DNA from: an uncultured Eubacteriales bacterium
GTDB taxonomy: Bacteria; Bacillota; Clostridia; Oscillospirales; CAG-272
Direction: 5' to 3'
NCBI GenBank assembly: GCA_900544985.1
Contig: UQXK01000001.1
Location: forward strand, 13,459-77,458
DNA: 64,000 nt
In this document: piece by piece, positions 9,040-60,896 of the stretch
How positions within the stretch are numbered: the first letter of the stretch is position 1
How the letters are laid out: each line of letters starts with the position of its first letter
Translations under genes and position numbers: made by a program
The notes under the pieces: generated by a model
The model's database searches: none
What the model was told of the DNA's origin: nothing
The model's input: the letters and a program-made list of their open reading frames with translations, nothing else

Positions 9040-9041
9040 AA

Positions 9042-19102: not shown

Positions 19103-20469
19103 TTCATCGCCTCCTTTTTAGAGACAATGAGTGCTACAATCCCGCTGATAAATACAGTTGCGAGACTTCCAATCGTTTTGTAAAGGGCAATTCCTAAAAT
19201 GTTGCCATATGCAAAAATCGGTAATCCGATAATTGCAGATGCCAAAATTCCGTAAAAAACACCGTTTGCCGATATTCTTTTCCCGAGAAGCGTCATAACG
19301 GTAGGGAGTAATGTTGTTGCTCTGATTGTGCAATAAAACAGAAACAGATGCGTAACCGTAAGACCTGGAATATTCGCTATGCCGATGCCGAACAATAACA
19401 AAATTAGCATACTTCCTTTTGCGACTTTGATGTTTCCTCCAAAATCACTTGTAAGAGAAGCTACTGCGCAAAGATTACTGTCAACAGTAGAAAGAAGTCC
19501 CGAAATAACCATGAACAGAAAGGGAAGCATCACCCATTTTGGAAACAGATTTGTAATCAATTCAAAATTAACCATTCCCGTGTCTGTTGCAACATATCCG
19601 GAACCTGCGGCAATGTAGCCGAGAATTCCCATAGAGAGCGGGGCGATAGCAAACATCAACGCGCCGAGCACAAATGCTTTTCCTATTTTATTTTTTTTGA
19701 TAGAGAAAGCACGTTGCCAAAAACATTGATCTCCAAAAGGACCTGCAATCAATCCAATGGCTGTTGGAATACCGAATGACAACAGAACGGAAATGCCGTT
19801 CCCGTCAAAAAGACTCTTAAATTCTCCACTAATACCGCCCAATCCGTTTATAAGATTTGAAACACCGCCATCTACCGATAATGCCCACGGTACGAATACC
19901 GCGCAGGCGGCAAGCATGAGAATCATTTGAAGCGCGTCCGTTATAACAGAGGCTTTTATCCCCGAAAATTGAGAGTAGGAAAAGGCAATGACCGCGAGAA
20001 TTATTGTCATTACCCAAAATGGAATGCCTGTAATTGATGAAAGAATCTTACCGCCAGCGAGCAGTTGTACGCCCGTCGATAAGATCGAGAGTAGGGAAAG
20101 CTGACCGAGATATGCGTATCTTACTTTTTCGGATTTGTATTGAGTTGCCATAAAGTTCGAAAGTGTAATGCCCTCGGGCATTCGCTCCCTTATCCTTTTG
20201 GCAAAAGGCACGAATAGGATTAGACACGCCACGTTCGGTATAAGGAACCAAAACAGTCCCGGAATACCGTTTGAATATGCCTTTTCCGCCGATGTGAATA
20301 GTGCCGGTGCCCAAATCCAAGTAGCCGCAATGCTCATAGCCGCCTGCCACATTCCAAGTTTTCTGTTAGCTACGTGAAAGTTATCGGCGTCTTTACTTTT
20401 TCGCGAAAATAAAAAAGTTGCGCCGAGCATTATCGCCGTATATACGACGAGTACAATGATACCATACAT
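19093..20469 (-). CDS. Sodium:solute symporter (SSF) family transporter
   Basis: 458 aa with a polytopic membrane profile throughout. The N-terminus LGATFLFSRKSKDADNFHVANRKLGMWQAAMSIAATWIWAPALF is typical of SSF transporters. AAAGGAGGAG lies 6 nt before the ATG. Confidence 0.85.
   Translation of the reverse strand: MYGIIVLVVYTAIMLGATFLFSRKSKDADNFHVANRKLGMWQAAMSIAATWIWAPALFTSAEKAYSNGIPGLFWFLIPNVACLILFVPFAKRIRERMPEGITLSNFMATQYKSEKVRYAYLGQLSLLSILSTGVQLLAGGKILSSITGIPFWVMTIILAVIAFSYSQFSGIKASVITDALQMILMLAACAVFVPWALSVDGGVSNLINGLGGISGEFKSLFDGNGISVLLSFGIPTAIGLIAGPFGDQCFWQRAFSIKKNKIGKAFVLGALMFAIAPLSMGILGYIAAGSGYVATDTGMVNFELITNLFPKWVMLPFLFMVISGLLSTVDSNLCAVASLTSDFGGNIKVAKGSMLILLLFGIGIANIPGLTVTHLFLFYCTIRATTLLPTVMTLLGKRISANGVFYGILASAIIGLPIFAYGNILGIALYKTIGSLATVFISGIVALIVSKKEAMKCQ
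20313..20333. repeat. 21-nt exact direct repeat, copy inside the transporter CDS
   Basis: AAATCCAAGTAGCCGCAATGC on the plus strand. The same 21-mer occurs at 20525-20545. Confidence 0.95.
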
Positions 20470-20581: not shown

Positions 20582-20612
20582 ATAAAAATACCGCCCGGCT
20601 ATTGCCGGACGG
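20582..20612 (-). terminator. Intrinsic terminator between the late-regulator gene and the transporter operon
   Basis: The minus strand reads CCGTCCGGC-aata-GCCGGGCGG followed by TATTTTTAT. This is a 9-bp stem with one G-U pair. Confidence 0.6.
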
Positions 20613-20673
20613 TTGCTTGATAGAATTTTACGATAGTATTATAACACATACAGTCGGGACATTTGGGACAACT

Positions 20674-21084
20674 TTATTTTTTACCTTTTTCTGAACGATT
20701 CAAAAAACGATAGCACGCTTTTTTTACACTGTCATCGGTATTTCCGCCTCCGATAGACAACGCAATTTGATTCCATGTCATTAAATCTATAAATCTGTAT
20801 GACAATATCAATCGCATTTGATAGTCATCCACTGAGCTTATGTAAGCGTCAATATTTTTGCGTTCTGATATGTATTTTATCTGCTCGTTCTTGATTCTAT
20901 CTTTGAGTTCTACAATTAAAGGAACAAGTTCTTCAATTATATTCTTTGACGAAGACCCGCGAGGCATGCCACTGATATTCATTCCACCTGGTTCTAATTT
21001 TGATTCAAGATCCGCCAGCCTTAAACTATCTCTTTCTATCAGCTTGTTTAAATAATACAGTTTACTGAGTTCGCGTAATGTCAT
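20674..21084 (-). CDS. Phage late-gene transcriptional regulator (sigma-70 region-4-like; DUF1492/ArpU/RinA-type)
   Basis: MTLRELSKLYYLNKLIERD...DYQMRLILSYRFIDLMTWNQIALSIGGGNTDDSVKKACYRFL is a pattern typical of small Firmicutes phage activators. Likely start is the ATG at 21084. Confidence 0.6.
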   Translation of the reverse strand: MTLRELSKLYYLNKLIERDSLRLADLESKLEPGGMNISGMPRGSSSKNIIEELVPLIVELKDRIKNEQIKYISERKNIDAYISSVDDYQMRLILSYRFIDLMTWNQIALSIGGGNTDDSVKKACYRFLNRSEKGKK

Positions 21085-21493
21085 TATTTTCCTCCTCATC
21101 TATATAGTTTCGACCAAATATGCAATGGAAGTCTGCAATGGTCAAGTTGTATTTTTTCATAGCTATTTTTTGTGTCTCTTTTTGCAGCTCTCTGCATATT
21201 TCAGCATTTTTATGTACGGCATTATCTCCGAAAATATGGCAACTGAAATGGTGAAGATATACCGTCAGACCATATTTTTCGGATTTCTGCCTGTATGGAC
21301 CGAAGAATATATGGTGCTTGTCCAAAGGATCTGTTCCTGTTCCGTATCTGCCGCAGATATAACATCTGCGGCTGTCTTTTTGAATAATACTTTTAGCCAT
21401 TAAAATCTCCAAAATTTTATTATTTATTTGTATTTTGTGTGGATAGATTTTTTTTGCACTCTCAAAATCAACTCGATTAAATCTCTTTTTCAT
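21062..21493 (-). CDS. Cys/His-rich phage protein (HNH-like/zinc-binding), function unknown
   Basis: Contains RRCYICGRYGTGTDPLDKHHIFFGPYRQKSEKYGLTVYLHHFSCHIFGDNAVHKN. The start was trimmed to the ATG at 21493 because the upstream part overlaps a better small gene. Confidence 0.45.
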   Translation of the reverse strand: MKKRFNRVDFESAKKIYPHKIQINNKILEILMAKSIIQKDSRRCYICGRYGTGTDPLDKHHIFFGPYRQKSEKYGLTVYLHHFSCHIFGDNAVHKNAEICRELQKETQKIAMKKYNLTIADFHCIFGRNYIDEEENNDITRTQ

Positions 21494-21661: not shown

Positions 21662-22729
21662 TCAACCTCCTATCTTCCAATCGTCTTTTCGTACCGAAAA
21701 CGCATCTCCGCACTGTATAATGTCGGGGGAATTGCTATTCGCAATTTTTATCGCAAACTTGTCGATTTCGTAAGCAAAATACTTAACATTTGTAAATCCC
21801 ATTTTGTCAAGGCAATAACGACCTGTGCCGATACCATCGTACATGGAAAGACATAGTATATCTTCGTCCCTCGGCACATTCTTAAATGCACCGTTCAGAA
21901 TATGTATGATAACCTCAGCAGTCCAGCCGTTGCCAAGTCCCTTATATCTTTGCATGTTGCTGACCGATGCCGTATATCCATCTGGCAATGTTTGCAGACG
22001 TTCACATTCAACTGGGGTCAGCTTTCTGATAATATAACATCCGTCGGGCAGATTGATAGAATATACACGCCCTTTCACCTCGATCAATCCGTTTTTGACC
22101 TCATAAACCCTTTTAATGCTTTCTTTGTCTTTCCCCGATCCTGTAAACGGCGTTGGATGTTCGTCTGTCTTTATAGCAACACCACTTGCGCCATATGTCG
22201 AATCATAACAACAAATATTCTGAACACTTGTGAAACTGTATTGCGCTTTCAATGTTTGCGATTTTCCATCGGATGTTGTGTTGATCGGAACATATACAAG
22301 TGTTCTGACATGCTTCGATAAGTTATGTTCTAATGTACTTCCTTTTTGTTCAGTAGCAGTCAAACAGTAAGACTTTGATTGACAGCATACACCGCTTTCA
22401 AGAATATCCGCAAGAAGTATTCCACGATCATGCGGTTGATCGACTTTCCAATTAAAGGCATAGAATCGTTGTCGGTTTTGAGCGGATACAAGCGCGGAAT
22501 TTATGTACATCAAATCAGCGCCAAGTTCTTTTGATATTTCATCTTTTATCGGTTGGGCAGCGCTCTTGTTGTTTTCATACAAGAAGAAGTCAGGTTTGAA
22601 TTTTTCTTTTGCAATTACATAATTGCGAAAAAGCTCCCAACCTATACCGCTCGGCTCCGTTTCACGGTTGTTCTTTTGTGCTATACTCCATTTTGTACAT
22701 GGCGAGCCGCCAATCAAAAGTTTTATCAT
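21662..22729 (-). CDS. DNA (cytosine-5) methyltransferase, circularly permuted motif order (IV-X then I-III)
   Basis: Starts MIKLLIGGSPCTKWS (motif IV). FFLYENNKSA is motif VI, INSALVSAQNRQRFY is motif VIII, LQTLPDGYT is in the TRD/IX region, and GLGNGWTAEVIIHIL is motif X. Only after these come ILCLSMYDGIGTGRYCL (motif I), FAYEIDKFAIKIA (motif II) and QCGDA (motif III), and then the stop. ATGA overlap with the upstream ASCH gene at 22726-22729. Confidence 0.8.
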   Translation of the reverse strand: MIKLLIGGSPCTKWSIAQKNNRETEPSGIGWELFRNYVIAKEKFKPDFFLYENNKSAAQPIKDEISKELGADLMYINSALVSAQNRQRFYAFNWKVDQPHDRGILLADILESGVCCQSKSYCLTATEQKGSTLEHNLSKHVRTLVYVPINTTSDGKSQTLKAQYSFTSVQNICCYDSTYGASGVAIKTDEHPTPFTGSGKDKESIKRVYEVKNGLIEVKGRVYSINLPDGCYIIRKLTPVECERLQTLPDGYTASVSNMQRYKGLGNGWTAEVIIHILNGAFKNVPRDEDILCLSMYDGIGTGRYCLDKMGFTNVKYFAYEIDKFAIKIANSNSPDIIQCGDAFSVRKDDWKIGG

Positions 22730-23385
22730 CTCAACTCCTCTACATAACACCAGCTTTGAGGCGGACGGGTAAGTGTTTTTCTTTTGTTGGCTCCGCACCT
22801 TGTATATCCATTTATTGGATCATCATCAAAACAAAGATAACGGCAGTTTTTGCATGTTTTGTCCGTTGCATAGCCCGTTCCTTTGCAGAATGTTGCAAAA
22901 TCCGAAAGTTCTCGCGGTTTATCATAGATTACAATGTCAGATATGTGCCAGCCGTAAATTGTTTTACCTTTTGCATAAATGTTAATATCTTCTCGTTCGA
23001 GCTGAGTTTCCAAAAGGCTGTCATCATCTATATCTGTTCCGTCACAGTAGTCGTATGGATATTCGATAATATTGTCACACACAAACTCGCCGATTACTTT
23101 GCCCTCTGCGAGATAAGCATTGTACCGATATGCAGGCAAGTGGGGGTTTACATCAACGACATCTTTTCCGCTTCGCCAGTTACCAGTAACACCAAACTCT
23201 TTTCGCCCATATCCGCTATTGACATAAAGGTGTAGAGCGTTTTTGCGATTATCATGTGTGCAGTAAATATAACACTTAAACGGCGTCTCTATCTTCGGTC
23301 TTGTTTTTCTGACTTCAATTGTCTTTTTGACCGAAGCTATCAGTTCGCACCATTTCGGTTGTATGCTTGTCAGTACAGAGTTCAT
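22726..23385 (-). CDS. ASCH (PUA-like) domain protein
   Basis: MNSVLTSIQPKWCELIASVKKTIEVRKTRPK and the C-terminal LTRPPQSWCYV are characteristic of phage ASCH proteins. ATGA overlap at 23382-23385. Confidence 0.75.
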   Translation of the reverse strand: MNSVLTSIQPKWCELIASVKKTIEVRKTRPKIETPFKCYIYCTHDNRKNALHLYVNSGYGRKEFGVTGNWRSGKDVVDVNPHLPAYRYNAYLAEGKVIGEFVCDNIIEYPYDYCDGTDIDDDSLLETQLEREDINIYAKGKTIYGWHISDIVIYDKPRELSDFATFCKGTGYATDKTCKNCRYLCFDDDPINGYTRCGANKRKTLTRPPQSWCYVEELR

Positions 23386-23630
23386 TTCAAATACCCACAT
23401 TTCTTCATTTCTTGGCATCTTATCTGCACATCATTCCAGTCTTTTAAGGCGAGATACGCAGATTTGAATTGCTCCATACCGCCTCTACCGCAGACAGGGC
23501 AATACGCTTCAAAATAAGTGTTAGGCTTTCCTCCGCATACTTTAAGTTGCGGCATTCCGTAATACACGCTGTCGCCGCTGTTCGGCTCATGGTCGCAACA
23601 CACACAAGGTAGAATTTTATCAACTTTCAT
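23382..23630 (-). CDS. Lar-like restriction-alleviation family protein (putative)
   Basis: 82 aa with the pattern CVCCDHEP....YCPVCGRGG....AYLALKDWNDV (two Cys pairs followed by WN). ATGA overlap with the YopX gene. Confidence 0.5.
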   Translation of the reverse strand: MKVDKILPCVCCDHEPNSGDSVYYGMPQLKVCGGKPNTYFEAYCPVCGRGGMEQFKSAYLALKDWNDVQIRCQEMKKCGYLK

Positions 23631-24136
23631 TTGCAACAATCTCCTTTCAGCAATTCGGGGGTGTCGTAAATATTGCCGATGACTTCTGCCACTTCAAGAG
23701 GTTCATCATCTTGATGATAATTCCACCACAATTCCCAAATAGAGATGAAATTATCATTAAAGCAGAAATAAGCGTTGTTCTGGAACGGTATTTTGCTATC
23801 AAGTAAATCGTAATCTATCTGCTGCGTTGTTGCGATTCCAAACGCTCCGCACTCTTGAACGATTTTTCCACGCATATCGAAAAGCTCTACTATATCCCCC
23901 TCGAAAATCTTCTTACCGTTCTTGTCGGTCAAGCCTGTGTACTGACTGATTGTTTTATAATCAATTTCTATACTCTTGATGCCATTTGTGTTAGTCATTT
24001 CAGTAGGTAAATTTTCAAAGCGTTCATCGTATAACCGTGTTACTAATCCGTACACCCAATCGCCATTTTTATAGTTTGTTATGTAAAATCCCTTGTCGCG
24101 ATTTATTGCTTTTCCTCTGAACAAAATTTCTCTCAT
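23627..24136 (-). CDS. YopX family protein
   Basis: MREILFRGKAI...DKNGKKIFEGDIVE...VIGNIYDTPELLK is the YopX signature. ATGA overlap with the upstream gene. Confidence 0.8.
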   Translation of the reverse strand: MREILFRGKAINRDKGFYITNYKNGDWVYGLVTRLYDERFENLPTEMTNTNGIKSIEIDYKTISQYTGLTDKNGKKIFEGDIVELFDMRGKIVQECGAFGIATTQQIDYDLLDSKIPFQNNAYFCFNDNFISIWELWWNYHQDDEPLEVAEVIGNIYDTPELLKGDCCK

Positions 24137-25076
24137 TGTTTCTCCTCCATTAACATCTTCCACCTGAATTTTCGATTTGTTGGCACTTTACTCTCATCTT
24201 CGGCTCGAAAGCGGATGTCAAAGTCATGAACAGTATGCCCGTCCGGATGAAATGTCACGGGACTGTCATTGTCCCACTTTAAGAGCAAAGCCCACAACTC
24301 GGGATAGTTTCTGCGGAGTAGTCGGAGCCGGTCGATTCCTTGATTATGACAAAACCAACACCCGCCACGGGCTGATGTGGTGTAAATCGGGCTGAGAAGG
24401 TTATTCTCTTCGCACCATTTGCGACAATACGCTTCATCCCAACCGATCATCACAAGAGGGAGCATTTTGCCGGGAACAGAATGTCGTTTGATTCGTTCCG
24501 GCTCATCTGCGGCGATACCGAGATATTGAACAGTATTTATCTTTGCCCCCTGTTCAATGGGGCAAGAGGAAAACTCTCTTTTTGAGTTGTGTGTTGCACC
24601 AAATGCCGCGAATGATTGGAAATCCGTATATATTGGTCGAGGGCACTCGCTTTGAGCCTGCTTTGGCAGAACGGCATTGTCCTTCTCGGAAAACCGTATC
24701 GAATCCAATATCGCTCTCTGTTTGAGTTTTGAGTTGCAATGTGGGTGCCACATTGTTGGGAATCCTTCGATTGCTCTCTCTCTCTCCGTTTGGGCACATG
24801 GTAAAAAATTTTTTCGTATGTAAGTTTTTCGCCGTTTTTCATGGCACAAATATGTTCAACCTCAACACCATATCTCTCCTTGATGATCTTGTCGGCTTTC
24901 TTTTTGAACTCTACCATGGGCGGTAAATCTGCCGGAATACTATCGGTCGCCCACACCTCGGCGTGTACGATACGGTCGAGAGGCAGTCCGAGAAGCCGGA
25001 TAGCTTCAAGGCAAGCGAGGCTATCTTTGCCGTATGATAAAGATAGTACATATTGTGTGTTTGAATCACTTGTCAT
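24133..25076 (-). pseudogene. PAPS-reductase-family PP-loop protein (third paralog), split by a frameshift inside a (GA)6 tract
   Basis: The N-terminal part is ORF 24537..25076, with the PP-loop LSLSYGKDSLACLEAI up to ..YHVPKRRER. The C-terminal part is ORF 24133..24849, in the -1 frame, from ..RERAIEGFPTMWHPHCNSKLK to the end. The two frames meet at GGAGAGAGAGAGAGC. Removing one GA unit joins them into one ~313-aa protein. Confidence 0.75.
24774..24786. repeat. Dinucleotide tract (CT)6C on the plus strand, (GA)6G in the gene sense
   Basis: Plus strand 24773-24788 reads gCTCTCTCTCTCTCcg. It sits exactly at the frame change of the PAPS-reductase gene. Confidence 0.95.
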
Positions 25077-25695
25077 TTTCTTCTCCCTTAAACTCTTTGT
25101 AGTCTACTTCATTCGGTGTGTCAATGTTGATGATTATAGCCTTTGAGAATGCTCTTTCTGCCACTTCATTGAGATAACTTTCTAACGTAGCTTCGCTCTT
25201 CTTGTTGGCGTTATACTGCTCGATTGTTATTTTGCCTTGTTCAAGCGCGACTTCATTGAAGCGCGGGTCATATCCAAACTTCTCACAGAGCGCCTCATCG
25301 TTATGGTCGTAGTAATCTTCCTTAAATTCCTCACATTCGTCATAATAGCGTTCGTTGTAGCACGCATATTCTCCGACGCTGACACTTCCAATCGACGCAA
25401 GCCATCTTCCATAGTCCTCGTACACAACATCGCTATCTACCATAGCCACAATTGGCAATGTCGGATTTTCTGCGACTATCCTCAAAAGAGTTTCGGTGTT
25501 TCTTTCAGTATTAAGTTCCATTTCAGTTTCCTCCTGTGATTCAAATTTTTTTCCGCCACAATGGTAAAATGCGTCATCTGGTTGCCAGTCTTCTATAACG
25601 ATGTCGTTGGTGAGGTCGCACATATATCCACCTTCTCCCAAGTACACGCAATGCTCGCATTCATAGCAATCTTTTCTTTCGGGCGGCATCTTCAT
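25066..25695 (-). CDS. Hypothetical protein (N-terminal Cys cluster, acidic)
   Basis: 209 aa with CYECEHCVYLGEGGYMCD at the N-terminus. It is coupled to its neighbours by overlaps at both ends. Confidence 0.5.
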   Translation of the reverse strand: MKMPPERKDCYECEHCVYLGEGGYMCDLTNDIVIEDWQPDDAFYHCGGKKFESQEETEMELNTERNTETLLRIVAENPTLPIVAMVDSDVVYEDYGRWLASIGSVSVGEYACYNERYYDECEEFKEDYYDHNDEALCEKFGYDPRFNEVALEQGKITIEQYNANKKSEATLESYLNEVAERAFSKAIIINIDTPNEVDYKEFKGEENDK

Positions 25696-25868
25696 TTTTC
25701 TTCCTCCCCATCTCGATAATAAATTCCCTCAATTCTGTCAACCAAAAGAGTAAGTTCCACTCCATCAGGCATCAATGCTCTGAAAATACCGTTTTCGGCG
25801 TTTTGCAGATGAATTACTCCGGATATGAATACCATATCGCCGTGTCTGTTTTGGTAATGCACCGTCAT
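25692..25868 (-). CDS. Hypothetical small protein (58 aa, below the ORF-track cutoff)
   Basis: My own translation gives MTVHYQNRHGDMVFISGVIHLQNAENGIFRALMPDGVELTLLVDRIEGIYYRDGEEEK. The stop forms an ATGA overlap with the start at 25695. Confidence 0.35.
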   Translation of the reverse strand: MTVHYQNRHGDMVFISGVIHLQNAENGIFRALMPDGVELTLLVDRIEGIYYRDGEEEK

Positions 25869-25874
25869 CTTTGT

Positions 25875-26072
25875 TCACCCTCCATTCTTGCTACGAATGT
25901 ATTTTTCTCCCTCCACTCGTTCTTTTATTTTGTTGATGTCAATTTCAATTCGCGCCATTGATTCGGGATAATATACAGACAAAAGGATCTTTTGCGGCTC
26001 ATGTTTGTCCGAGAGAAGAAAAGCCGCAAGCTCTCTTGATATTTGCTCCTTTATAATCTCATTTTGCGTCAT
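25875..26072 (-). CDS. Hypothetical small protein
   Basis: 65-aa ORF with a 4-nt overlap with the upstream ORF. Confidence 0.4.
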   Translation of the reverse strand: MTQNEIIKEQISRELAAFLLSDKHEPQKILLSVYYPESMARIEIDINKIKERVEGEKYIRSKNGG

Positions 26073-26308
26073 TTTCTTTCCCCCGCTTCCTTGGAAGCCG
26101 TTATATTCGTTCCATTCGTGCGGTAGGTTGCTATGTAGTAATTTCGCTTATCTTCTGAAAGATTTATAAGGCGTTGGTCCGCCCGCTCTCTGCCCGCGAC
26201 AAGCTCTTTGGGCGTTTTATAAAAAGAGCATTTTTCACACTCTTTTTCCCGAAGCGCGCCGCATATCGCTTCACCCTTGTCAAATGCACATTTTGCGTTT
26301 TTGCTCAT
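26069..26308 (-). CDS. Hypothetical small Cys-containing protein
   Basis: 79 aa containing CAFDKGEAICGALREKECEKCSFYK. 4-nt overlaps on both sides. Confidence 0.4.
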   Translation of the reverse strand: MSKNAKCAFDKGEAICGALREKECEKCSFYKTPKELVAGRERADQRLINLSEDKRNYYIATYRTNGTNITASKEAGERK

Positions 26309-26505
26309 AGTCTTGTCCTTGAAGAAAAAGAAAAGCTCTTCTTTTTCTCTTCCTCTTTCCAGATCTCGTATCTTTGACGGACATCTGGGTGCTCGTCGAA
26401 AAACTTATAGTGTTTCGAAAGAGACTTGTCCACCATATCGAAAAGCTCTGCAAGCTGTTCGTTTTTTCTCTTCTCTTCGAGATATGCTTCATATAGTACG
26501 TTCAT
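26305..26505 (-). CDS. Hypothetical small protein
   Basis: 66-aa ORF in the same coupled chain. Confidence 0.4.
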   Translation of the reverse strand: MNVLYEAYLEEKRKNEQLAELFDMVDKSLSKHYKFFDEHPDVRQRYEIWKEEEKKKSFSFSSRTRL

Positions 26506-26543
26506 CTTTTACTCCTTTTATGATAGATAGTTTTTATTTTCAT

Positions 26544-27431
26544 TTATGTTTCTTGTCCTTTATCTGCCAAATCAAGGTTTGCCGCAGCTTGTTCGAAATA
26601 ACTCTTTTTAAGTTCAATTCCAATGTGTCTGCGATTCATTTTAAGTGCCTGATACCCAGTCGATCCGATACCGTCAAATGGATCAAGTACGATTTCGCCC
26701 TCTCGGCTCCACAATTCAATACATCGTTCAATCACCGGTAACTGCAATGGGCAGATATGGCGTTCATCTTTTTCGCTTCGGGCACTTTTTCTCTGTAATG
26801 TTGCACTTTGATTTATGTCCCACCATACTGGCGTTGCATATTCATCCCACACAGGGGAGGCTATCTGTTGCCAATGTGATACAGGGTATTCTTCGGGTTC
26901 ATGACAAAGCGGCTCCGGATTTGTCCCGGGTTTTCTAAAAGTACAGATAAAATCCGGTATGCCTTGTCTGCTCATAGCAGAGTCTTTTTTTAGTTGTTTC
27001 CACAAAAGACCGAGAGCTTTTGTGCGCTGCATTGCTGTTACGGGATTTTTCCAAATACATACCTCAGAATGATAGATGAATCCGAGCGACTGCATCCAGC
27101 GAATTACATCGCCGCGGAAGTCTCTTATTCCTATTACGCCATCTTTTTCTTTTGATGTAGGCAAGTTCATACAATGGATCGAGACAAGACGTCCCGGCAT
27201 CATGACACGGAACCATTCAGTACCGAGAAATTTATAGTGTTCCGCGAATTCGTCATATGTTCTGCTATTTCCCATATCCCTATCGCTATTTGAATATGTA
27301 TAAAGTGATGCGAAAGGAATAGAAGTAATGCAGTAGTGAATACTGTTAGATGGAATTCCCGCAAGTACCTCACAAGAATCGCCATTATATAACACATAAT
27401 TATTTCCTCTGACTTGATCTAAAACTTTCAT
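26544..27431 (-). CDS. DNA methyltransferase, beta-class (N6-adenine or N4-cytosine)
   Basis: 295 aa. The catalytic-type motif CITSIPFASLY is near the N-terminus and the AdoMet motif VLDPFDGIGSTGYQALKMNRRHIGIEL is near the C-terminus. ATGA overlap with the SNF2 gene. Confidence 0.85.
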   Translation of the reverse strand: MKVLDQVRGNNYVLYNGDSCEVLAGIPSNSIHYCITSIPFASLYTYSNSDRDMGNSRTYDEFAEHYKFLGTEWFRVMMPGRLVSIHCMNLPTSKEKDGVIGIRDFRGDVIRWMQSLGFIYHSEVCIWKNPVTAMQRTKALGLLWKQLKKDSAMSRQGIPDFICTFRKPGTNPEPLCHEPEEYPVSHWQQIASPVWDEYATPVWWDINQSATLQRKSARSEKDERHICPLQLPVIERCIELWSREGEIVLDPFDGIGSTGYQALKMNRRHIGIELKKSYFEQAAANLDLADKGQET

Positions 27432-28801
27432 ACAGCATATCCTCCTTCAATTACCCATTCCGGAATGAACATATCAATTCTCGGTTCGTATGCTTCCGTC
27501 ATGCGGACGGTTGCCCTAATTTCATTTGATAATATATCTTTAGTGTGTTTCACCATTTCGGCAATCATCTGCTTGCATTGCTCGTTCTTGCGTTCGATGT
27601 TGTCCCGTACGGCACCCTCTGCTGTGGATATTATGATATACACGTTTACAGTATGCTTTTGTCCAAAACGCCAGCAACGTCGGATTGCCTGATAGAGCAA
27701 TTCATAGCTATCTGATAGTCCTACAAATACCATGTTATAACAGCCTTGCCAGTTAAGTCCGAATCCCGCGATACTTGGCTTGGTAATAAGCCTTTGGAAT
27801 AGACGTTCGGAAAATGCCGCAAGTCGTATTTCTTTACGTTCCGAAGTATCGGATCCTCTAACCTCTCGTGCTCCCGGAATCACTCTTCTGAGTTCTTCTG
27901 CTTCGTCGTTAAGGTCACACCATATCAGCCATTGTGCATCAGGATCAGTATCTGTGATTCTTTTGGCTGCCTTGCATCTTGCTAATAGGCTTAAACGTCT
28001 GGCATCGTGTCTTTCCGAAAGAGTGGAAGCAATCGGCGCATTACTCTTTACCTCTATATACTTGATATTGAGCTTAGGTAAATCGTATCCGGTGCTGTCA
28101 TATCCGAGATCAGCGGGAGTGGTCAAGACGACTGCCCAACTTGTGAGCCATTTCCAAAAGTCTTTTTCAGCATGACCTTTAAGTCTCCATTTGCTTGTGT
28201 CCCCGCCGTCATGCACAAAAAATTCGGCAAGCATTTCGGTGCGTTTCATTACTCCAAGAAATTCAGCTTGGTTGCCAAGCTCCATATAGTCATTCGGTGC
28301 CGGCGTTGCAGTACAAGAGAGTTTATATGGAATATCAGCACAACTTTCTATGATCTGCGTGCGGAGTTTTCCGCTGTATTGTTTCAGTATTGAACTTTCA
28401 TCCAATGCCACGCCACCGAATATAGTCAAATCAAAGTGATCGAGCATTTCATAGTTTGTGATGTTGATACCTTGAACAACGTCTTTCTGTGATCGGCAGA
28501 TATTCACATCGTATCCGAATTTGAAACCCTCTCGCCTTGTCTGCTTTGATACAGCAAGCGGCGCAATGATGATCGTCGGTCTTTCGGTATGATTGGAAAT
28601 AAGCTTGCACCATTCTAGTTGCTGTATCGTCTTTCCAAGTCCACAATCTTCAAATAGTGCCGCCTTGCCTTTTTTTAGCGCCCATGCGACAATATCCTTT
28701 TGCCATTCGAACATTTTTGAATTCATATCAGCTTTTTCAAAAGAGAATCCGCAACACGGAATCGCTACTGCTTTTTTCTGTAAAAATTCATCGTAATTCA
28801 T
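27428..28801 (-). CDS. SNF2-family helicase/ATPase
   Basis: Contains EDCGLGKTIQQLEW (motif I) and VALDESSILK (motif II), with C-terminal helicase motifs ..VGLSDSYELLYQAIRRCWRFGQ. The start was set to the ATG at 28801, which has AAAGGAG 5 nt upstream. Confidence 0.85.
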   Translation of the reverse strand: MNYDEFLQKKAVAIPCCGFSFEKADMNSKMFEWQKDIVAWALKKGKAALFEDCGLGKTIQQLEWCKLISNHTERPTIIIAPLAVSKQTRREGFKFGYDVNICRSQKDVVQGINITNYEMLDHFDLTIFGGVALDESSILKQYSGKLRTQIIESCADIPYKLSCTATPAPNDYMELGNQAEFLGVMKRTEMLAEFFVHDGGDTSKWRLKGHAEKDFWKWLTSWAVVLTTPADLGYDSTGYDLPKLNIKYIEVKSNAPIASTLSERHDARRLSLLARCKAAKRITDTDPDAQWLIWCDLNDEAEELRRVIPGAREVRGSDTSERKEIRLAAFSERLFQRLITKPSIAGFGLNWQGCYNMVFVGLSDSYELLYQAIRRCWRFGQKHTVNVYIIISTAEGAVRDNIERKNEQCKQMIAEMVKHTKDILSNEIRATVRMTEAYEPRIDMFIPEWVIEGGYAV

Positions 28802-28853
28802 CGTTTCTCCTTTTGTCCGTGCGGGTGGATATCCCCCCCGCCGAGCAGATTTG

Positions 28854-30368
28854 TTATTTACCCAAGACTTCACCCAATTTCTTTTTAAGAAGCGCATCGA
28901 AATCATCTTCGGTTTCTTCGATGACTTCCTCAATTTCGTCGGTCTCGGTGTCTATTGCCTCATCCCCGGACTTTTTGTAAAGCGGGTGTGTCCCGTTTAA
29001 CATATGTTTTTCCTCATCGGACATTTCATATCCGAGAACACAAAGCCCTTGATACAGGCTTTTAAGTTTGGGATTTTCACGGTAATTGCCGCTCCAATCG
29101 ACACAGTTGTTATTGAAGCTATCGCACCATTGCGCATATACGTTCATCAGAAGAGCTTTTTCCGGGTGTTTATCTATGAATTCCGCAACCTTAGCCCAAT
29201 CATCATTATTTTTGATATCAAACAGTTCCTTGAACCTATCTATGCTTGCTTGTACGGTGGAGTATCCAGAAAACAGTCCCTGGCTCATCATCGATACAAT
29301 CTCGCGCAAACACATCCAGTCAGAAATTTTCTCGATATTTTTCTTACTGTCTCTATGTGAGTAATTTTTAATGAAGTTAAATCTTAACCAGAATGCACTT
29401 TTGGAAAGTTCGGAAAGTTGCTCTCTTCTTGTGCGTTCTTCATCGCGCCTTTTCTGCTCCTCGCGCTCTGATCCTTCGGTTTCTTCGGTCATTACTTTAT
29501 CGGCGCGAATGTATGGTATATCGTTGTAGCCCCATGCAAAGTAGAGCTTATCGTGGCTTTTTGCATATTCTGCAATCTTTTCATTGCTTGGCTCACCGTC
29601 AAGATAACCGAGAGATTTATACTGCTCATTCCAGATATCGTTGTATGAGATTTCCTCCATACCAAATGTTTCAAATATCTTTTGCCATTCTAATTTTCTC
29701 TTTTTCCCGTTTTGCGCGTTGAGTGCTTTTTGAAACTCTCGGTTGAAGTTGTTGGTTCCAATTTCGCAGAGGACTTTGTTTCTTGTATCAATATCCTCAA
29801 TTTGAGAGAGCATATCATAATCCATTAGCGAGGCCTGTCGTCCGGATACATTTTTCAGTGTTTCTCCGTCCAATTCTGCTATTTTCAATCGGCGGCGAAT
29901 AGTGGATTTTGAAAATCCTGTTTTTTCGGCAACAGCATCAATACTATCGCCAAAATCCATCATCATTTGGAATCCCTGTGCTTGCTCATAAATTGTTAGG
30001 TCTTCTCGTTGCATATTTTCCAAAAGCATGGTTTGAACCTGTTCGGCAGGAGTCATCTTGGCAATGACGCAGGGAAGCGTTTTTAGTCCTGCCGCCTTTG
30101 CTGCTTCAAGACGTCTATTTCCTATTACAACAAGATATCCAATTTCAGCTTGCTGTTTCGGATCGTCGCATCCCACCCCAGTCGTTTGAAACCAAAAAGG
30201 AACGACTGTTAGATTTTGCAAAACACCTTTTGCCTTTATGCTTTCCGTGAGTTCTGTCAAGTCTCCTAAACTCTTACGCGGATTGTCGTGATGATGGTGT
30301 AGCAGACTAACGGGTATATTGACTATTTCTCCCGTGACTTCTTCTGTGTATACAAACTTATTTTCCAT
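28854..30368 (-). CDS. ParB-N domain protein with long C-terminal extension
   Basis: 504 aa. IPVSLLHHHHDNPRKSLGDLTELTESIKAKGVLQNLTVVP...VVIGNRRLEAAKAAGLKTLPCVI is a ParB/Spo0J N-terminal signature, followed by HTH-like FSKSTIRRRLKIAEL. Confidence 0.8.
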   Translation of the reverse strand: MENKFVYTEEVTGEIVNIPVSLLHHHHDNPRKSLGDLTELTESIKAKGVLQNLTVVPFWFQTTGVGCDDPKQQAEIGYLVVIGNRRLEAAKAAGLKTLPCVIAKMTPAEQVQTMLLENMQREDLTIYEQAQGFQMMMDFGDSIDAVAEKTGFSKSTIRRRLKIAELDGETLKNVSGRQASLMDYDMLSQIEDIDTRNKVLCEIGTNNFNREFQKALNAQNGKKRKLEWQKIFETFGMEEISYNDIWNEQYKSLGYLDGEPSNEKIAEYAKSHDKLYFAWGYNDIPYIRADKVMTEETEGSEREEQKRRDEERTRREQLSELSKSAFWLRFNFIKNYSHRDSKKNIEKISDWMCLREIVSMMSQGLFSGYSTVQASIDRFKELFDIKNNDDWAKVAEFIDKHPEKALLMNVYAQWCDSFNNNCVDWSGNYRENPKLKSLYQGLCVLGYEMSDEEKHMLNGTHPLYKKSGDEAIDTETDEIEEVIEETEDDFDALLKKKLGEVLGK

Positions 30369-30837: not shown

Positions 30838-31487
30838 TTCTTATCCTCCAAAAGATTTGCTTTTTTAGGTGTATCAAGCTCTTTATATGCCTGCCCTGAG
30901 ATAAGTTCCCATTTTTTATCTTCTTTCCTGCGGATATTTTGCACTTCCAATAGGAAAGAGTCTGTTTCTGGGTAGAGTTGGCGGACTTTTCTTATCGAAG
31001 AAGACAGCGCCGCGGGGAGCGCCGCTGTTTGCATCTCTCTCTCATATGTGGGTTTGTAAAGGTCCATAAACGCCACTTTATCCATGCCGTCTTTATTGCC
31101 TGCATAACTGCCTCGGTGGAGTTCCCAAAGGGTATGCCATCCGATAGTTTCCACGACACGTTCGATAAGTGGAGGAAAAGTCGGGCGTCCCCAAGAGGAT
31201 TCTCCCGTTGCATGCATAACATCCATTACTGCCATCCATGCAATATCGGGCGGTATCAGTTCGGGATGGAGTATTTCAGCCATGGATTCTCTGATTTCCG
31301 CTATGCTTGGTGGCCATTTGTTGCTCGCTATGTGCTTTGTAACCGCAAGCTCAACAGCGCTTTTGTCATCGTCTTTGAAGAATGCGTACCAAGCTGTTAC
31401 CATTCCTGGTATGCTTTCCTCTTTGAAGCGATCGGGATATGACATCACAATAACCGTTACAATGTCGAGCAATTCATTCTTTGTCAT
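30834..31487 (-). CDS. Putative replicative-helicase loader (G40P-loader-like)
   Basis: MTKNELLDIVTVIVMSYPDRFKEE..MVTAWYAFFKDDDKSAVELAVTKHIASNKWPPSIAEIRE resembles the loader/inhibitor of G40P family. It lies next to the replisome organizer gene. Confidence 0.55.
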   Translation of the reverse strand: MTKNELLDIVTVIVMSYPDRFKEESIPGMVTAWYAFFKDDDKSAVELAVTKHIASNKWPPSIAEIRESMAEILHPELIPPDIAWMAVMDVMHATGESSWGRPTFPPLIERVVETIGWHTLWELHRGSYAGNKDGMDKVAFMDLYKPTYEREMQTAALPAALSSSIRKVRQLYPETDSFLLEVQNIRRKEDKKWELISGQAYKELDTPKKANLLEDKK

Positions 31488-40328: not shown

Positions 40329-40481
40329 TTATTTATCTGATAATAGGCTTTTCACTAAAACTATTATCATATCTTGTGCTTGGGGCGGAATTCTCATAAA
40401 AAGCTCAGTGGCTTCGATTAACCTTTTGTTTTTTTGTTCATCTGTCGTTTTGTTCGGATATGCAGTTTTTGCTTCTTTCAT
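40329..40481 (-). CDS. Small protein (50 aa) homologous to the C-terminal tail of the two XRE repressors
   Basis: My own translation gives MKEAKTAYPNKTTDEQKNKRLIEATELFMRIPPQAQDMIIVLVKSLLSDK. AAAGGAA lies 8 nt upstream and TATAAT further upstream on the minus strand. It aligns with KEFVELFSELTEEQQKMLVLQMKGLLAK and LEFINLFAQLTMEQQSLVISQIKGILS. Confidence 0.4.
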   Translation of the reverse strand: MKEAKTAYPNKTTDEQKNKRLIEATELFMRIPPQAQDMIIVLVKSLLSDK

Positions 40482-40603
40482 ATTGCCTTGTTCCTTTCGT
40501 CAGAATTTCTAATTTCGCTACAACCATTATAATACAATTAAATAGAACTACTTCAATTTTGTTATTTTATAACAAATATATGAATAAGCAAGGAGGCGAG
40601 CTC

Positions 40604-51175: not shown

Positions 51176-51324
51176 TATTTTATTGAGATAATTTTATATC
51201 TGCTACGACAAAAATATGAAAGCATACAGGAAAAAGCGCGAAAAGCTGCACGCGCTTTTTACGGGGGGGGGAGATGAGGTTCGAACATTTTCCCCGAGAA
51301 ATGCTTTCATGAATATTCATAAAC

Positions 51325-60894: not shown

Positions 60895-60896
60895 AT

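What the first reader, a model, noticed from the sequence alone, without database searches (positions are those of the whole stretch)
21662..30368. Second modification block (ParB-N, SNF2, beta-MTase, third PAPS reductase, YopX, Lar-like, ASCH, C5-MTase): an unusually redundant anti-restriction/modification arsenal
**Seen in sequence:**
- One coupled leftward operon, with many ATGA overlaps, encodes the following:
  - a 504-aa ParB-N protein;
  - an SNF2 ATPase;
  - a beta-class MTase;
  - a third PP-loop (SYGKDS) enzyme;
  - YopX;
  - a Lar-like protein;
  - an ASCH protein;
  - a C5-MTase.
- Together with the 16-20 kb operon, the phage carries 3 PP-loop paralogs, 3 ParB-N proteins and 2 MTases.

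**Established:** ParB/SNF2/methylase/PAPS-reductase combinations are recurrent mobile gene neighbourhoods whose chemistry is not experimentally settled.

**Inference:** The paralogs may act on different sequence contexts or at different steps. Alternatively, one set may be a counter-defence and the other a superinfection-exclusion function.
Basis: partly seen in the sequence, partly recalled or inferred. Interest (0 to 1): 0.6.

Follow-up and report, generated by a model that had tools for sequence, protein, structure and literature searches.

The report
Prophage enzyme gene with three-frame motif cassettes
The flagged prophage block is largely as described, but its "third PAPS reductase" is split by a slippery (GA)6 repeat and encodes the same cysteine motif three times, once per reading frame, each copy evolving as coding sequence in its own frame, which looks like a new kind of hypermutable switch in a phage enzyme gene.

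Summary
The gene list is mostly right. ParB-N/HTH, SNF2, a beta-class N6/N4 MTase, YopX and a C5-MTase pass family thresholds. ASCH is sub-threshold and Lar has no match.

Main corrections:
- The three PP-loop and three ParB-N proteins show no meaningful pairwise similarity, so they are not recent duplicates.
- The two sets lie in different transcription units.
- The C5-MTase is circularly permuted. It is a 1.07-kb indel absent from a 95-98% identical relative.
- The third PP-loop gene is not one ORF here.

In that gene a (GA)6 tract puts the N-terminal half out of frame with the C-terminal half. Three exact 70-nt units follow, each encoding GFPx6Cx3LK in a different frame.

Across 184 unique homologs:
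- 41 carry such repeat-associated arrays (37 with cassettes in at least two frames).
- Off-frame stops are depleted six-fold in the arrays, and repeat tracts are enriched 35-fold.
- Off-frame cassettes vary mostly at their own third codon position (9/8/30 on unconstrained codons).
- 58 of 58 are open back to the tract.
- 32% of these genes are frame-broken, against 3% of the others.

Best reading: a phage contingency locus whose alternative motif cassettes have been used in turn. A T2 agt contingency locus is the nearest precedent. The enzyme's chemistry is unknown.

The parts
28854..30368 (-). ParB_N + HTH_ParB protein, 504 aa (C-terminal ~280 aa unassigned)
   Evidence: Pfam PF02195 50.5 bits and PF17762 27.9 bits. 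TIGR00180 81 bits. 97% identical homolog in L162.
27428..28801 (-). SNF2-family ATPase, 457 aa from the ATG at 28801 (the mechanical ORF extends to a TTG at 28933)
   Evidence: PF00176 26.0 bits and PF00271 23.7 bits, both just above their cut-offs. Weak ZorD/DpdE/DrmD-type helicase hits. The start has an AAAGGAG ribosome-binding site and matches the 457-aa L162 gene.
26544..27431 (-). Beta-class amino (N6-A or N4-C) DNA methyltransferase, 295 aa
   Evidence: PF01555 79 bits. PADLOC MTase_II E 1e-34. Motif IV 'SIPF' lies N-terminal to motif I 'FDGIGS'.
25066..26505 (-). Five small or unknown ORFs (66, 79, 65, 58 and 209 aa), translationally coupled
   Evidence: ATGA overlaps. No family hit except PHROG 23660, of unknown function. 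Conserved in L162.
24537..25076 (-). PP-loop gene, N-terminal reading frame ('frame A', 179 aa). It has the SYGKDS PP-loop, reads cassette C1 off-frame and C2 in frame, and stops just after the array.
24774..24785 (-). (GA)6 simple-sequence repeat at the frame junction. One GA unit fewer, or two more, would join the N-terminal half to C1 and the C-terminal half.
   Evidence: The same state occurs in L163 and L164. Relatives L162, L167 and L168 carry (AG)9-11 and are intact.
24721..24765 (-). Cassette C1, GFPTMWHPHCNSKLK, in frame B (in frame with the C-terminal half)
24651..24695 (-). Cassette C2, GFPRRTMPFCQSRLK, in frame A (in frame with the N-terminal half), exactly 70 nt after C1
   Evidence: Variation across relatives peaks at its own third codon position (15 sites, against 6 and 4).
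24581..24625 (-). Cassette C3, GFPIIRGIWCNTQLK, in frame C, exactly 70 nt after C2. This is the most canonical copy (G.WC). Its own frame stops at a TGA at 24554-24556.
   Evidence: Variation peaks at its own third codon position (16 sites, against 6 and 9).
24133..24849 (-). PP-loop gene, C-terminal reading frame ('frame B'). It reads C1, then C2 and C3 off-frame as a linker, then the conserved YLGIAADE...CRKWC...GCWFCHNQ domain.
   Evidence: In the AF2 model of the intact relative P0001 the linker is disordered (pLDDT below 50 for residues 134-183).
23627..24136 (-). YopX-family protein
   Evidence: PF09643 58.5 bits. ATG at 24136 with a GGAGGAG ribosome-binding site and an ATGA overlap with the PP-loop gene's stop.
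23382..23630 (-).
   Evidence: No hit in Pfam (E<=5), NCBIfam or PHROGs. 100% identical homolog in L162.
22726..23385 (-). 219-aa protein (230-aa mechanical ORF), possibly ASCH-like
   Evidence: PF04266 E 0.046, below the cut-off. PHROG 3136, unknown function, E 1e-26.
21662..22729 (-). Circularly permuted C5-cytosine DNA methyltransferase, 355 aa. Order is motifs IV-X, then I-III.
   Evidence: PF00145 aligns residues 25-302 to profile positions 62-320. The C-terminal 60 aa align to profile positions 3-56, and a re-permuted sequence aligns to 3-320. The homolog in L163 has the same order with a different middle region. The gene is absent from L162.
20590..20613 (-). Terminator-like hairpin that separates this operon from the late SSF/PP-loop/ParB/terminase operon
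   Evidence: 10-bp stem with 8 GC pairs plus a T-run. It follows a PHROG 36 regulator gene at 20674-21099.

Best explanation
**Setting.** The block is the distal part of the early/replication operon of an integrated temperate phage of a gut Clostridia (Oscillospirales-type) host.

**Ordinary functions (inferred from family).** The two orphan methyltransferases presumably methylate phage DNA against host restriction. The C5 enzyme is a swappable accessory insert.

**The unusual element.** The PP-loop gene at 24133-25076 belongs to the TtuA/SspD/DndC-like ATP-pyrophosphatase superfamily. It has an invariant Cys-containing loop-helix motif, G-F-P-x6-C-x3-L-K.

**Shown:**
- In this gene, and in about a fifth of its family, a hypermutable repeat ((GA)n or G7-11) lies just upstream of two to four diverged copies of that motif.
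- The copies are spaced at 3n+1 nt, so successive copies lie in frames 0, +1 and +2.
- All three frames stay open from the repeat through the array.
- Only one frame continues into the C-terminal domain.

**Shown by comparison:** changes in repeat length move the N-terminal half from one cassette's frame to another. Each cassette type is found in frame in some genomes and out of frame in others.

**Inferred mechanism.**
- Slipped-strand mutation at the repeat switches the enzyme between a full-length ON form and truncated OFF forms. This would be bet-hedging on a DNA- or nucleic-acid-modifying activity, as reported for phage T2 agt.
- Together with a second compensating slip or indel downstream of the array, it brings a different cassette into the full-length protein.
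- Over evolutionary time the cassettes 'time-share' the coding role. That would explain why each shows purifying selection in its own frame.

**State in this prophage.** The gene is in a non-full-length phase: N-terminal half + C2, 179 aa.

**Unknown.** The chemistry, the substrate and any anti-restriction role.
For: **Anatomy in the window**
- GFP codons start at 24765, 24695 and 24625, exactly 70 nt apart and in three frames. The units share only 28-38 of 70 nt.
- The (GA)6 tract at 24774-24785 is the longest dinucleotide repeat in the 64-kb window.

**Family survey (184 unique genes)**
- 132 short forms have one in-frame motif and no off-frame copy.
- 41 are repeat-associated long forms. 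Of these, 37 have cassettes in at least two frames and 22 in all three.

**Coding constraint in each cassette's own frame**
- Clade G, variable sites by phase p0/p1/p2: C2 14/4/2 and C3 2/17/5. For comparison, the N-terminal part gives 42/35/135 and the C-terminal part 21/11/91.
- Clade W (with the window): C2 15/6/4 and C3 6/16/9.
- Intact genes only, by own codon position: f1 cassettes 3/2/12 (p=0.005); f2 cassettes 7/6/31 (p=1e-6).
- Codons not fixed by the search pattern: 9/8/30 (p=5e-5).

**Open frames and repeats**
- Off-frame stop density is 0.87% in arrays, against 5.5% and 4.5% in the flanking coding parts (Fisher p=8e-37).
- Repeat tracts occur at 3.05 per kb in arrays, against 0.087 per kb outside the gene.
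- 58 of 58 off-frame cassettes with an upstream tract are open back to that tract.

**Repeat lengths change first**
- L010 and L064 have 0 mismatches in 808 nt and differ by one AG unit.
- L002 and L042 have 0 mismatches and differ only as G8 versus G7.
- The window, L163 and L164 share the (GA)6 state in three separate assemblies.

**Frequent OFF states:** 13 of 41 repeat-type genes are frame-broken, against 4 of 143 others (odds ratio 16, p=7e-7).

**Cassette time-sharing**
- The same cassette types occupy different frames in different genomes.
- P0006/L166 uses a C3-type copy in a full-length ORF.
- L165 reads half of C2 in frame and regains the C-terminal frame through a G5-to-G7 change after the array.

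**Structure:** the frame-0 reading of C2 and C3 is a disordered loop in the AF2 model.

**Superfamily**
- SYGKDS PP-loop.
- PHROG 424, E 1e-26.
- SspD, E 1e-5.
- Best structural matches are TtuA, NcsA, MnmA and PAPS reductase.

**Precedent:** T2 agt, a DNA-glucosylation gene, acts as a reversible repeat-driven contingency locus trading TgvAB against McrBC sensitivity (PMC12633550).
Against: - In the alternative frames the product stops 12-114 nt after the array and lacks the conserved C-terminal domain (65 of 69 cassettes). A single slip therefore gives a truncated protein, not a new full-length isoform. Cassette exchange needs a second compensating event.
- A clear downstream repeat exists only in some clades (G5-G7 in the window's clade; only G4 in clade G).
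- No reads were available, so switching within a population has not been shown.
- Metagenome assemblies can mis-call long homopolymers.
- Sequences within clades are related, so the p-values are not from independent samples.
- Enzyme function is inferred only from remote homology: no Pfam PAPS_reduct hit, and Foldseek E of only about 4e-3.
- No cysteine desulfurase or other partner gene was identified.
Confidence: 0.55

Rival explanations
1. Programmed recoding. Off-frame cassettes are decoded from a single genotype by transcriptional slippage on the long G or GA tracts, or by ribosomal +1/-1 frameshifting at the array borders. This would give several isoforms at once, including full-length proteins that use C2 or C3, or proteins with several motif copies.
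For: - Purifying selection acts in each cassette's own frame.
- The ~30 nt after C3 are nearly invariant at all codon positions in the window's clade.
- A TGA in C3's own frame is conserved there. In L162 it reads CTT TGA G, like the prfB +1 site, and the window has CCC C upstream.
- Two diverged genes, L014 and L238, share the same discontinuity, CGG GGG TAA G.
- Family members with two in-frame motif copies exist, so multi-copy proteins are tolerated.
Against: - No slippery site is conserved across clades. CAT TGA and CTC TGA are not shift-prone, and clade G has no stop at that position.
- There is no X_XXY_YYZ heptamer in phase at the window's junction (my reading of the sequence).
- The array RNA folds no better than shuffles (z = -1.68).
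- There is no Rfam match.
- Most genes are intact in frame 0 without any recoding.
Confidence: 0.2
2. Decaying gene. The array is the relic of tandem duplications in a dispensable accessory gene, the frameshift in the window is simple pseudogenisation, and the off-frame motifs have no function.
For: - The window's gene is frame-broken, and 32% of repeat-type genes are.
- The frame-0 reading of C2 and C3 is a disordered linker.
- C1 and C2 in the window's clade lack the otherwise conserved Trp.
- A few copies are degenerate: GVP in L011 and AFP in L005.
Against: - Neutral relics would not show variation peaking at their own third codon position in two clades and on unconstrained codons.
- They would not show a six-fold depletion of off-frame stops, or 58 of 58 frames open back to the repeat.
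- The copies are only 40-54% identical within a genome yet orthologous across genomes, so they are old and maintained.
- The flanking N- and C-terminal parts remain under strong purifying selection.
Confidence: 0.1
3. One reading: a redundant anti-restriction or DNA-hypermodification arsenal. The PP-loop/ParB sets would install a non-methyl DNA modification (for example sulfur-based), and the sets would differ in sequence context or timing.
For: - Two MTases are present.
- The PP-loop proteins hit DndC, BrxP or SspD models weakly.
- The two sets lie in early and late operons.
- The block is conserved in relative L162.
- A phage DNA-modification gene under repeat control has a precedent.
Against: - No desulfurase, DndD/E-like or glycosyl/aminoacyl-transfer partner was found.
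- The hits to Dnd/Ssp models are far below the family cut-offs (for example DndC 25.7 bits against 290).
- Lar and ASCH are not confirmed.
- The ParB+PAPS-reductase-like pair also exists as chromosomal ybdNM, of unknown role.
- One of the three PP-loop genes is OFF here.
Confidence: 0.3
4. Artefact. The frame differences reflect assembly or sequencing errors in repeats.
For: Homopolymers of 8-11 G are error-prone. Most of the data are metagenome assemblies.
Against: - The cassettes themselves are complex sequence in fixed 3n+1 register. They recur in dozens of independent assemblies.
- The (GA)6 state is identical in three assemblies from different sources.
- GA repeats of 6-17 units are not a known Illumina error mode (my own knowledge).
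Confidence: 0.03

Closest known systems
Repeat-driven contingency loci (phase variation), including the phage cases: T2 agt and T4 rIIA poly-A tracts (PMC12633550) and Fletchervirus poly-G tracts in receptor-binding genes (cited there)
   Same: - A hypermutable mono- or dinucleotide tract lies inside an ORF.
- Tract length is the first thing to differ between otherwise identical genes.
- Length changes shift the reading frame.
- A sizeable fraction of natural alleles are out of frame.
- In T2 the target is also a DNA-modification enzyme, and the logic is bet-hedging against opposing host defences.
   Different: - Known loci toggle ON/OFF, or change expression level.
- Here the tract is followed by two to four diverged copies of the same catalytic-loop motif, one per reading frame.
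- All frames are kept open, and each copy is under purifying selection in its own frame. I found no description of such an arrangement.
- Switching rates have not been measured here.
PP-loop sulfur or modification enzymes of the PAPS-reductase-like clade: DndC, SspD, BrxP, and the [4Fe-4S] thiolases TtuA/NcsA
   Same: - N-terminal PP-loop (S-x-G-K-D-S).
- Conserved cysteines: the motif Cys, CxxxC and CxxC.
- Weak profile hit to SspD.
- Best structural matches are TtuA, NcsA and PAPS reductase.
- Genomic company of DNA methyltransferases and ParB/Srx-fold proteins, as with DndB in Dnd systems.
   Different: - Scores are far below the family cut-offs, and there is no Pfam PF01507 hit.
- No DndA/SspA desulfurase or DndD/E partner is present.
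- The gene is phage-borne.
- The substrate is unknown.
E. coli ybdN-ybdM operon (PAPS reductase/DUF3440-like plus ParB-like). Its paralogs ibrA/ibrB are from my own knowledge.
   Same: An adjacent, translationally coupled PP-loop gene and small ParB-like gene: PP1 with ParB1, and PP2 with ParB2, at 16-19 kb.
   Different: Not tested for orthology. No DUF3440 hit was found. The window's third PP-loop gene has no adjacent small ParB gene.
Circularly permuted C5-MTases (M.BssHII; plant DRM enzymes) - from my own knowledge
   Same: All ten C5 motifs are present but in a rotated order within one polypeptide.
   Different: - The break point here is inside or just before motif IV. The protein starts MIKLLIGGSPC and ends ...KIGG after motifs I-III.
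- It forms a very large phage or metagenome family with exchangeable target-recognition regions.
Cassette-type diversification systems (shufflons, Type I hsdS inversion, DGRs) and the prfB-type +1 frameshift
   Same: Alternative versions of one protein segment are stored at the locus. A stop codon in one frame lies next to an open +1 frame.
   Different: - There is no recombinase, inverted repeat or reverse transcriptase at the locus.
- Selection among versions would be by reading frame, not by DNA rearrangement.
- No conserved shift site was found.

Membership tests
Repeat-driven contingency locus | Hypermutable simple-sequence repeat within the ORF | tested here: met
   The (GA)6 tract at 24774-24785 lies inside the gene. 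Homologs carry (GA)6-17 or G7-G11 at the same places. Density is 3.05 per kb in arrays against 0.087 per kb outside the gene.
Repeat-driven contingency locus | Tract length differs between otherwise identical alleles and changes the reading frame | tested here: met
   L010/L064 and L002/L042 have 0 mismatches and differ only at the tract, with a frame change. The window has (GA)6 and is out of frame; L162 has (AG)9.5 and is intact.
Repeat-driven contingency locus | High-frequency reversible switching within a population | not testable with these tools
   Needs read-level data or a fluctuation assay. The only indirect support is that 13 of 41 natural alleles are out of frame, against 4 of 143 for forms without a tract.
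PAPS reductase / PP-loop ATP pyrophosphatase superfamily (third PP-loop gene) | PP-loop motif SGGxDS near the N-terminus | tested here: met
   SYGKDS at residues 14-19, invariant in 59-67 homologs.
PAPS reductase / PP-loop ATP pyrophosphatase superfamily (third PP-loop gene) | Match to Pfam PF01507 or an NCBIfam PAPS/APS reductase model above its cut-off | tested here: not met
   No Pfam hit at E<=0.01 for either half, and none is precomputed for the homologs. The only NCBIfam hit is 16 bits against a 456 cut-off. PHROG 424 'PAPS reductase' does match, at E 1e-26.
PAPS reductase / PP-loop ATP pyrophosphatase superfamily (third PP-loop gene) | Adenine-nucleotide alpha-hydrolase fold | tested here: inconclusive
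   The AF2 model has mean pLDDT 73. Best Foldseek hits are TtuA, NcsA, MnmA and yeast PAPS reductase, at E 4e-3 to 3e-2 and TM 0.34-0.50.
DndC / SspD DNA phosphorothioation enzymes | Score above the family model cut-off and the presence of partner genes (desulfurase, DndD/E or SspB/C) | tested here: not met
   SspD E 1e-5 for P0001. DndC/BrxP E about 1e-10 for PP1, with 25.7 bits against a 290 cut-off. No partner genes were seen in the window.
C5-cytosine DNA methyltransferase | Motifs I (FxGxG), IV (PC), VI (ENV), VIII (QxRxR) and X (GNG), with PF00145 above its cut-off | tested here: met
   PF00145 scores 84 bits. GGSPC, YENN, QNRQR, GNGW and DGIGTG are all present, but in the order IV...X, I-III.
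Beta-class amino-MTase | PF01555 hit, with motif IV preceding motif I | tested here: met
   79 bits. SIPF at about residue 37 and FDGIGS at about residue 250. N6-A versus N4-C specificity was not determined.
SNF2 ATPase | SNF2-related N-lobe plus Helicase_C above their cut-offs | tested here: met
   26.0 bits against 24.9, and 23.7 against 23.5. Both are marginal.
ParB/Srx N-terminal domain (three proteins) | PF02195 above its cut-off | tested here: met
   The 504-aa protein scores 50.5 bits and the 172-aa protein 32.5 bits, against a 26.3 cut-off. The 215-aa protein has no Pfam hit, only PHROG 620 at E 3e-41.
Lar restriction-alleviation family | Match to the Lar family model | tested here: not met
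   No Pfam hit at E<=5, and no NCBIfam or PHROG hit. Only a CxxC...CxxC pattern is visible.
ASCH domain | PF04266 above its cut-off | tested here: inconclusive
   14.9 bits against a 21.2 cut-off, E 0.046, covering residues 18-55 only.
Programmed +1 frameshift of the prfB type | Conserved shift-prone codon followed by a stop, with an upstream stimulator | tested here: not met
   CTT TGA occurs only in L162. The others have CAT, CTC or AAT before the TGA. Clade G has no stop there. No significant RNA structure was found.

The most novel reading that the evidence does not exclude
A 'frame-indexed cassette switch'. A phage stores three alternative versions of the catalytic Cys loop of a nucleic-acid-modifying PP-loop enzyme, one in each reading frame. 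It uses slipped-strand mutation at flanking repeats, possibly helped by transcriptional or ribosomal slippage, to choose which version is built into the enzyme. This would give heritable, reversible variation in enzyme activity or specificity as well as ON/OFF switching. It would be a diversification mechanism distinct from shufflons, DGRs and ordinary phase variation.
Probability: 0.3. Interest if true: 0.88.

Novelty: new variant of a known kind. Interest (0 to 1): 0.72.

Why it matters
**Generally:** contingency loci have only just been reported in phages, in T2 and T4 (a 2025 preprint). This locus extends the idea to temperate phages of gut Clostridia. It adds an arrangement I could not find described: one functional motif encoded once per reading frame behind a slippery tract, with each copy under coding constraint in its own frame.

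**If the cassettes are truly alternative functional versions:**
- This would be a new, very compact way to encode protein variants using reading frame as the selector.
- It would be a natural example of sequence kept open and meaningful in all three frames.

**Practical consequences:**
- Gene callers will keep reporting these genes as split, as pseudogenes, or as carrying a 'linker'.
- 'PAPS reductase auxiliary metabolic gene' annotations in gut viromes are probably wrong for this family.
- The modification status of such phages may be heterogeneous within a population, which matters for host-range and defence studies.

Tried and rejected
- **Megablast of the block against 50,697 phage records:** no match.
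- **Tandem Repeats Finder:** does not see the 70-nt array because the copies are only 40-54% identical.
- **Rfam and tRNA scans of the whole window:** nothing.
- **RNA folding of the array:** not better than shuffles (z = -1.68).
- **-1 slippery heptamer at the junction:** CCCAAAC is present but out of phase, so rejected. This rests on my reading of the sequence.
- **CCC_C or CTT_TGA +1 slip after C3:** considered but not conserved across clades.
- **Deletion or unequal recombination between cassettes as the switch:** rejected. Removing 3n+1 or 3n+2 nt always leaves the C-terminal domain out of frame (arithmetic).
- **Ascertainment bias in the codon-position test:** the motif search pattern fixes six codons. 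I repeated the test on the other codons only and the signal held.
- **Literature search for IbrA/IbrB:** returned only unrelated 'iBRB' papers.
- **First structure job:** I redid it with permitted ids.
- **Not attempted:**
  - Structure prediction for the ASCH-like and Lar-like proteins.
  - Host identification beyond the hosts of relatives.
  - Large codon-model analysis.

Full report
**1. Context**

The window holds an integrated prophage running from position 1 to about 42.3 kb.
- Lambda-type portal, and gpA-type large terminase at 12943-14862.
- Replication module with AAA_24, SSB, replisome organiser, G39P and RusA.
- Large serine recombinase at 40460-42271.

Host genes follow (PFOR, YfhO, RqcH), and then a second terminase/portal pair. 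Relatives of the key gene lie in phages and MAGs of Oscillospirales and other Clostridia. A metagenomic contig, L162, is collinear with the window and 95-98% identical in DNA across the whole 12.9-35.8 kb region.

**2. Checking the gene list**

*Passing curated thresholds:*
- ParB_N + HTH_ParB, 504 aa.
- SNF2-rel_dom and Helicase_C, both marginal.
- N6_N4_Mtase.
- YopX.
- C5 DNA_methylase.

*Other checks that hold:*
- The amino-MTase has motif IV (SIPF) before motif I (FDGIGS), so 'beta class' is correct.
- Gene starts have good ribosome-binding sites, and several junctions are ATGA or GTGA overlaps.

*Not confirmed:*
- The 'ASCH' protein reaches only 14.9 bits against a 21.2 cut-off.
- The 'Lar-like' protein matches nothing.

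*The counts.* '3 PP-loop, 3 ParB-N, 2 MTases' is right at superfamily level, but the third ParB (215 aa) is seen only by PHROG 620. The members are not paralogs in any recent sense. BLASTP finds nothing better than E 0.002 over 32 residues among the PP-loop proteins, and nothing better than E 0.26 among the ParB proteins.

*Transcription units.* A PHROG 36 regulator gene (20674-21099) and a strong terminator-like hairpin (20613-20590) separate the flagged block from the other set. That set (SSF transporter, PP2, ParB2, PP1, ParB1) heads the late operon just upstream of the small and large terminase genes. The timing is my inference from this layout.

**3. The C5-MTase**

- Its real start is the ATG at 22729, with a GAGGAG ribosome-binding site and an ATGA overlap with the upstream gene.
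- The protein begins with motif IV (MIKLLIGGSPC). It ends with motifs I-III (LSMYDGIGTG...YEID...GDAF).
- The Pfam profile aligns residues 25-302 to positions 62-320. The C-terminal 60 residues align to positions 3-56. A re-permuted sequence aligns to 3-320.
- Thousands of database homologs share this order, with very different middle regions.
- The gene is a clean 1.07-kb indel absent from L162. It is present in L163 with a different target-recognition region.

It is therefore a swappable accessory MTase of a widespread permuted family.

**4. The third PP-loop gene is split**

- Frame A (25076 to 24537) encodes the SYGKDS N-terminal half.
- Frame B (24849 to 24133) encodes the conserved C-terminal half: YLGIAADE, CRKWC, GCWFCHNQ.
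- The frames meet at GGAGAGAGAGAGAGC, the (GA)6 tract at 24774-24785.
- Immediately downstream, GFP codons start at 24765, 24695 and 24625. They are exactly 70 nt apart and so lie in three different frames:
  - C1: GFPTMWHPHCNSKLK
  - C2: GFPRRTMPFCQSRLK
  - C3: GFPIIRGIWCNTQLK
- The units share only 28-38 of 70 nt, so they are not recent duplicates.
- All three frames are open across the array.

**5. The arrangement is a family trait**

The family is large: 6,981 proteins at E<=1e-5 among the candidates scored, with lengths from 259 to 413 aa. I collected DNA for 184 unique genes from IMG/VR, metagenomes, GTDB genomes and look-ups of close relatives.

| Form | Number | Features |
|---|---|---|
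| Short | 132 | One in-frame G[FW]Px6WCx3LK motif, no off-frame copy |
| Long, in-frame duplication | 11 | No repeat tract (for example phage nd4) |
| Long, repeat-associated | 41 | 37 have cassettes in at least two frames, 22 in all three |

In the repeat-associated forms the cassettes are spaced at 3n+1 nt: 61 and 58 nt in L002, 70 and 70 nt in the window. They follow (GA)6-17 or G7-G11 tracts.

**6. Evidence that the off-frame copies are constrained as coding sequence**

Variable sites by phase (p0/p1/p2) in orthologous alignments. The third codon position is p2 for frame 0, p0 for C2's own frame and p1 for C3's own frame.

| Segment | Clade G | Clade W (includes the window) |
|---|---|---|
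| N-terminal part | 42/35/135 | 22/16/91 |
| C2 (own third position = p0) | 14/4/2 | 15/6/4 |
| C3 (own third position = p1) | 2/17/5 | 6/16/9 |
| C-terminal part | 21/11/91 | 22/12/59 |

- The flanks show the expected excess at the frame-0 third position. In C2 and C3 the excess moves to the cassette's own third position, in both clades.
- Restricting to genes that are intact in frame 0 gives 3/2/12 for f1 cassettes and 7/6/31 for f2 cassettes, counted by own codon position.
- Restricting to codons not fixed by my search pattern gives 9/8/30 (p=5e-5).
- Off-frame stop codons are six-fold depleted in arrays: 0.87% against 5.5% and 4.5% in the flanking coding parts.
- All 58 off-frame cassettes with an upstream tract are open back to that tract.
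- The frame-0 translation of C2 and C3 is a disordered loop in an AF2 model of the intact relative, with pLDDT below 50 for residues 134-183.

**7. Evidence that the tracts are the mutable element**

- Two pairs of genes with zero mismatches over about 700-800 nt differ only by one AG unit, or by one G, and each difference changes the frame.
- Tract density is 35-fold higher in arrays than in the surrounding 288 kb of phage DNA.
- Among repeat-type genes, 13 of 41 are frame-broken, against 4 of 143 for the other forms.
- The window's (GA)6 state recurs in two independent assemblies, L163 and L164. L163 differs from the window downstream of the gene.

**8. How it most likely works**

*A single slip.* It moves translation from the N-terminal half into another cassette's frame. 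That frame stops 12-114 nt after the array. The immediate effect is therefore ON/OFF switching.

*Exchanging cassettes.* A full-length protein with a different cassette needs a second, compensating change. Relatives document such outcomes:
- L166 (P0006) is full-length with a C3-type cassette in frame.
- L165 reads half of C2 in frame. It regains the C-terminal frame through a G5-to-G7 change right after the array.
- Each cassette type is found in frame 0 in some genomes and out of frame in others.

*My conclusion.* This is a contingency locus in which the cassettes take turns being the expressed copy over evolutionary time. That accounts for the own-frame constraint.

*The main rival* is recoding from a single genotype. 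It has hints in its favour: a conserved TGA after C3, near-invariant sequence there, and a discontinuity shared by L014 and L238. It has no conserved shift site and no RNA structure.

**9. What the enzyme is**

- It has a PP-loop and five conserved cysteines.
- It matches PHROG 424 (E 1e-26) and, weakly, SspD.
- Its model is closest to the [4Fe-4S] thiolases TtuA and NcsA, and to MnmA and PAPS reductase, but only at E about 4e-3.
- It fails the Pfam and NCBIfam PAPS-reductase models.

I therefore place it in the superfamily but not in any named family. The substrate is unknown. The motif Cys may be an Fe-S ligand or a persulfide-carrying residue; that is inference only.

**10. Comparison with known systems**

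- The nearest precedent is the T2 agt contingency locus. There a poly-A tract reversibly switches DNA glucosylation, trading sensitivity to TgvAB against McrBC (PMC12633550).
- The same bet-hedging logic would suit a modification enzyme in this prophage.
- The new feature is the set of frame-specific alternative cassettes.
- The PP-loop+ParB pairs resemble the E. coli ybdNM operon, of unknown function.

**11. Verdict**

The embedded three-frame cassette array behind a slippery repeat is real, widespread, statistically well supported and, as far as I could find, undescribed. Its mechanism is only partly resolved.

Noticed in passing
window 19093-20469 (minus): A 458-aa sodium:solute symporter family membrane protein (PF00474 E 2e-23; PHROG 20720, 609 bits, unknown function) is the first gene of the phage late operon. 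It is translationally coupled to a PP-loop gene and lies just upstream of the terminase genes. A transporter in that position is odd.
   Followed up: partly
window 21662-22729 (minus): The C5-MTase is circularly permuted (motifs IV-X, then I-III). It belongs to a very large metagenomic family with exchangeable target-recognition regions. The gene is a 1.07-kb indel relative to the 95-98% identical relative L162.
   Followed up: yes
L001 (phage nd4, OR777945) 8986-9960: The nd4 homolog has two in-frame motif copies and an in-frame TGA exactly where all relatives have Trp (GC*FC against GCWFC). The record annotates it as two hypothetical proteins.
   Followed up: no
L002, L006, L011, L012, L075 and others, about 680 nt after the PP-loop codons: A second G7-G9 tract sits at the codons for R-G-G-C, just before the invariant GCWFC. 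G7 (L042) or G9 (L075) breaks the frame while the rest of the gene is identical or near-identical.
   Followed up: partly
L014 and L238, just after the codons for EHICAVRG: Two clearly diverged genes share the same +1 discontinuity at CGG GGG TAA G. This is either a recurrent slip at a G5 run or a conserved recoding site.
   Followed up: no
window 28833-28839: A G7 run (on the minus strand) lies in the short spacer between the ParB gene's stop and the SNF2 gene's start.
   Followed up: no
window 31034-31043 and 51263-51271: A (GA)5 tract (on the minus strand) lies inside the G39P-like replication gene. A G9 tract lies in a host intergenic region.
   Followed up: no
window 59569-62537 (plus): A second phage-like terminase (Terminase_6N) and a P22-like portal lie beyond the host genes. 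This points to another prophage or satellite at the window's end.
   Followed up: no
window 22700-25100 compared with L162 and L163: Between otherwise 95-98% identical phages, the stretch from the PP-loop array through YopX, the ASCH-like gene and the MTase is the mosaic hot spot. Protein identities there are PP3 87%, YopX 70% and ASCH-like 58%, and the MTase is present or absent.
   Followed up: partly
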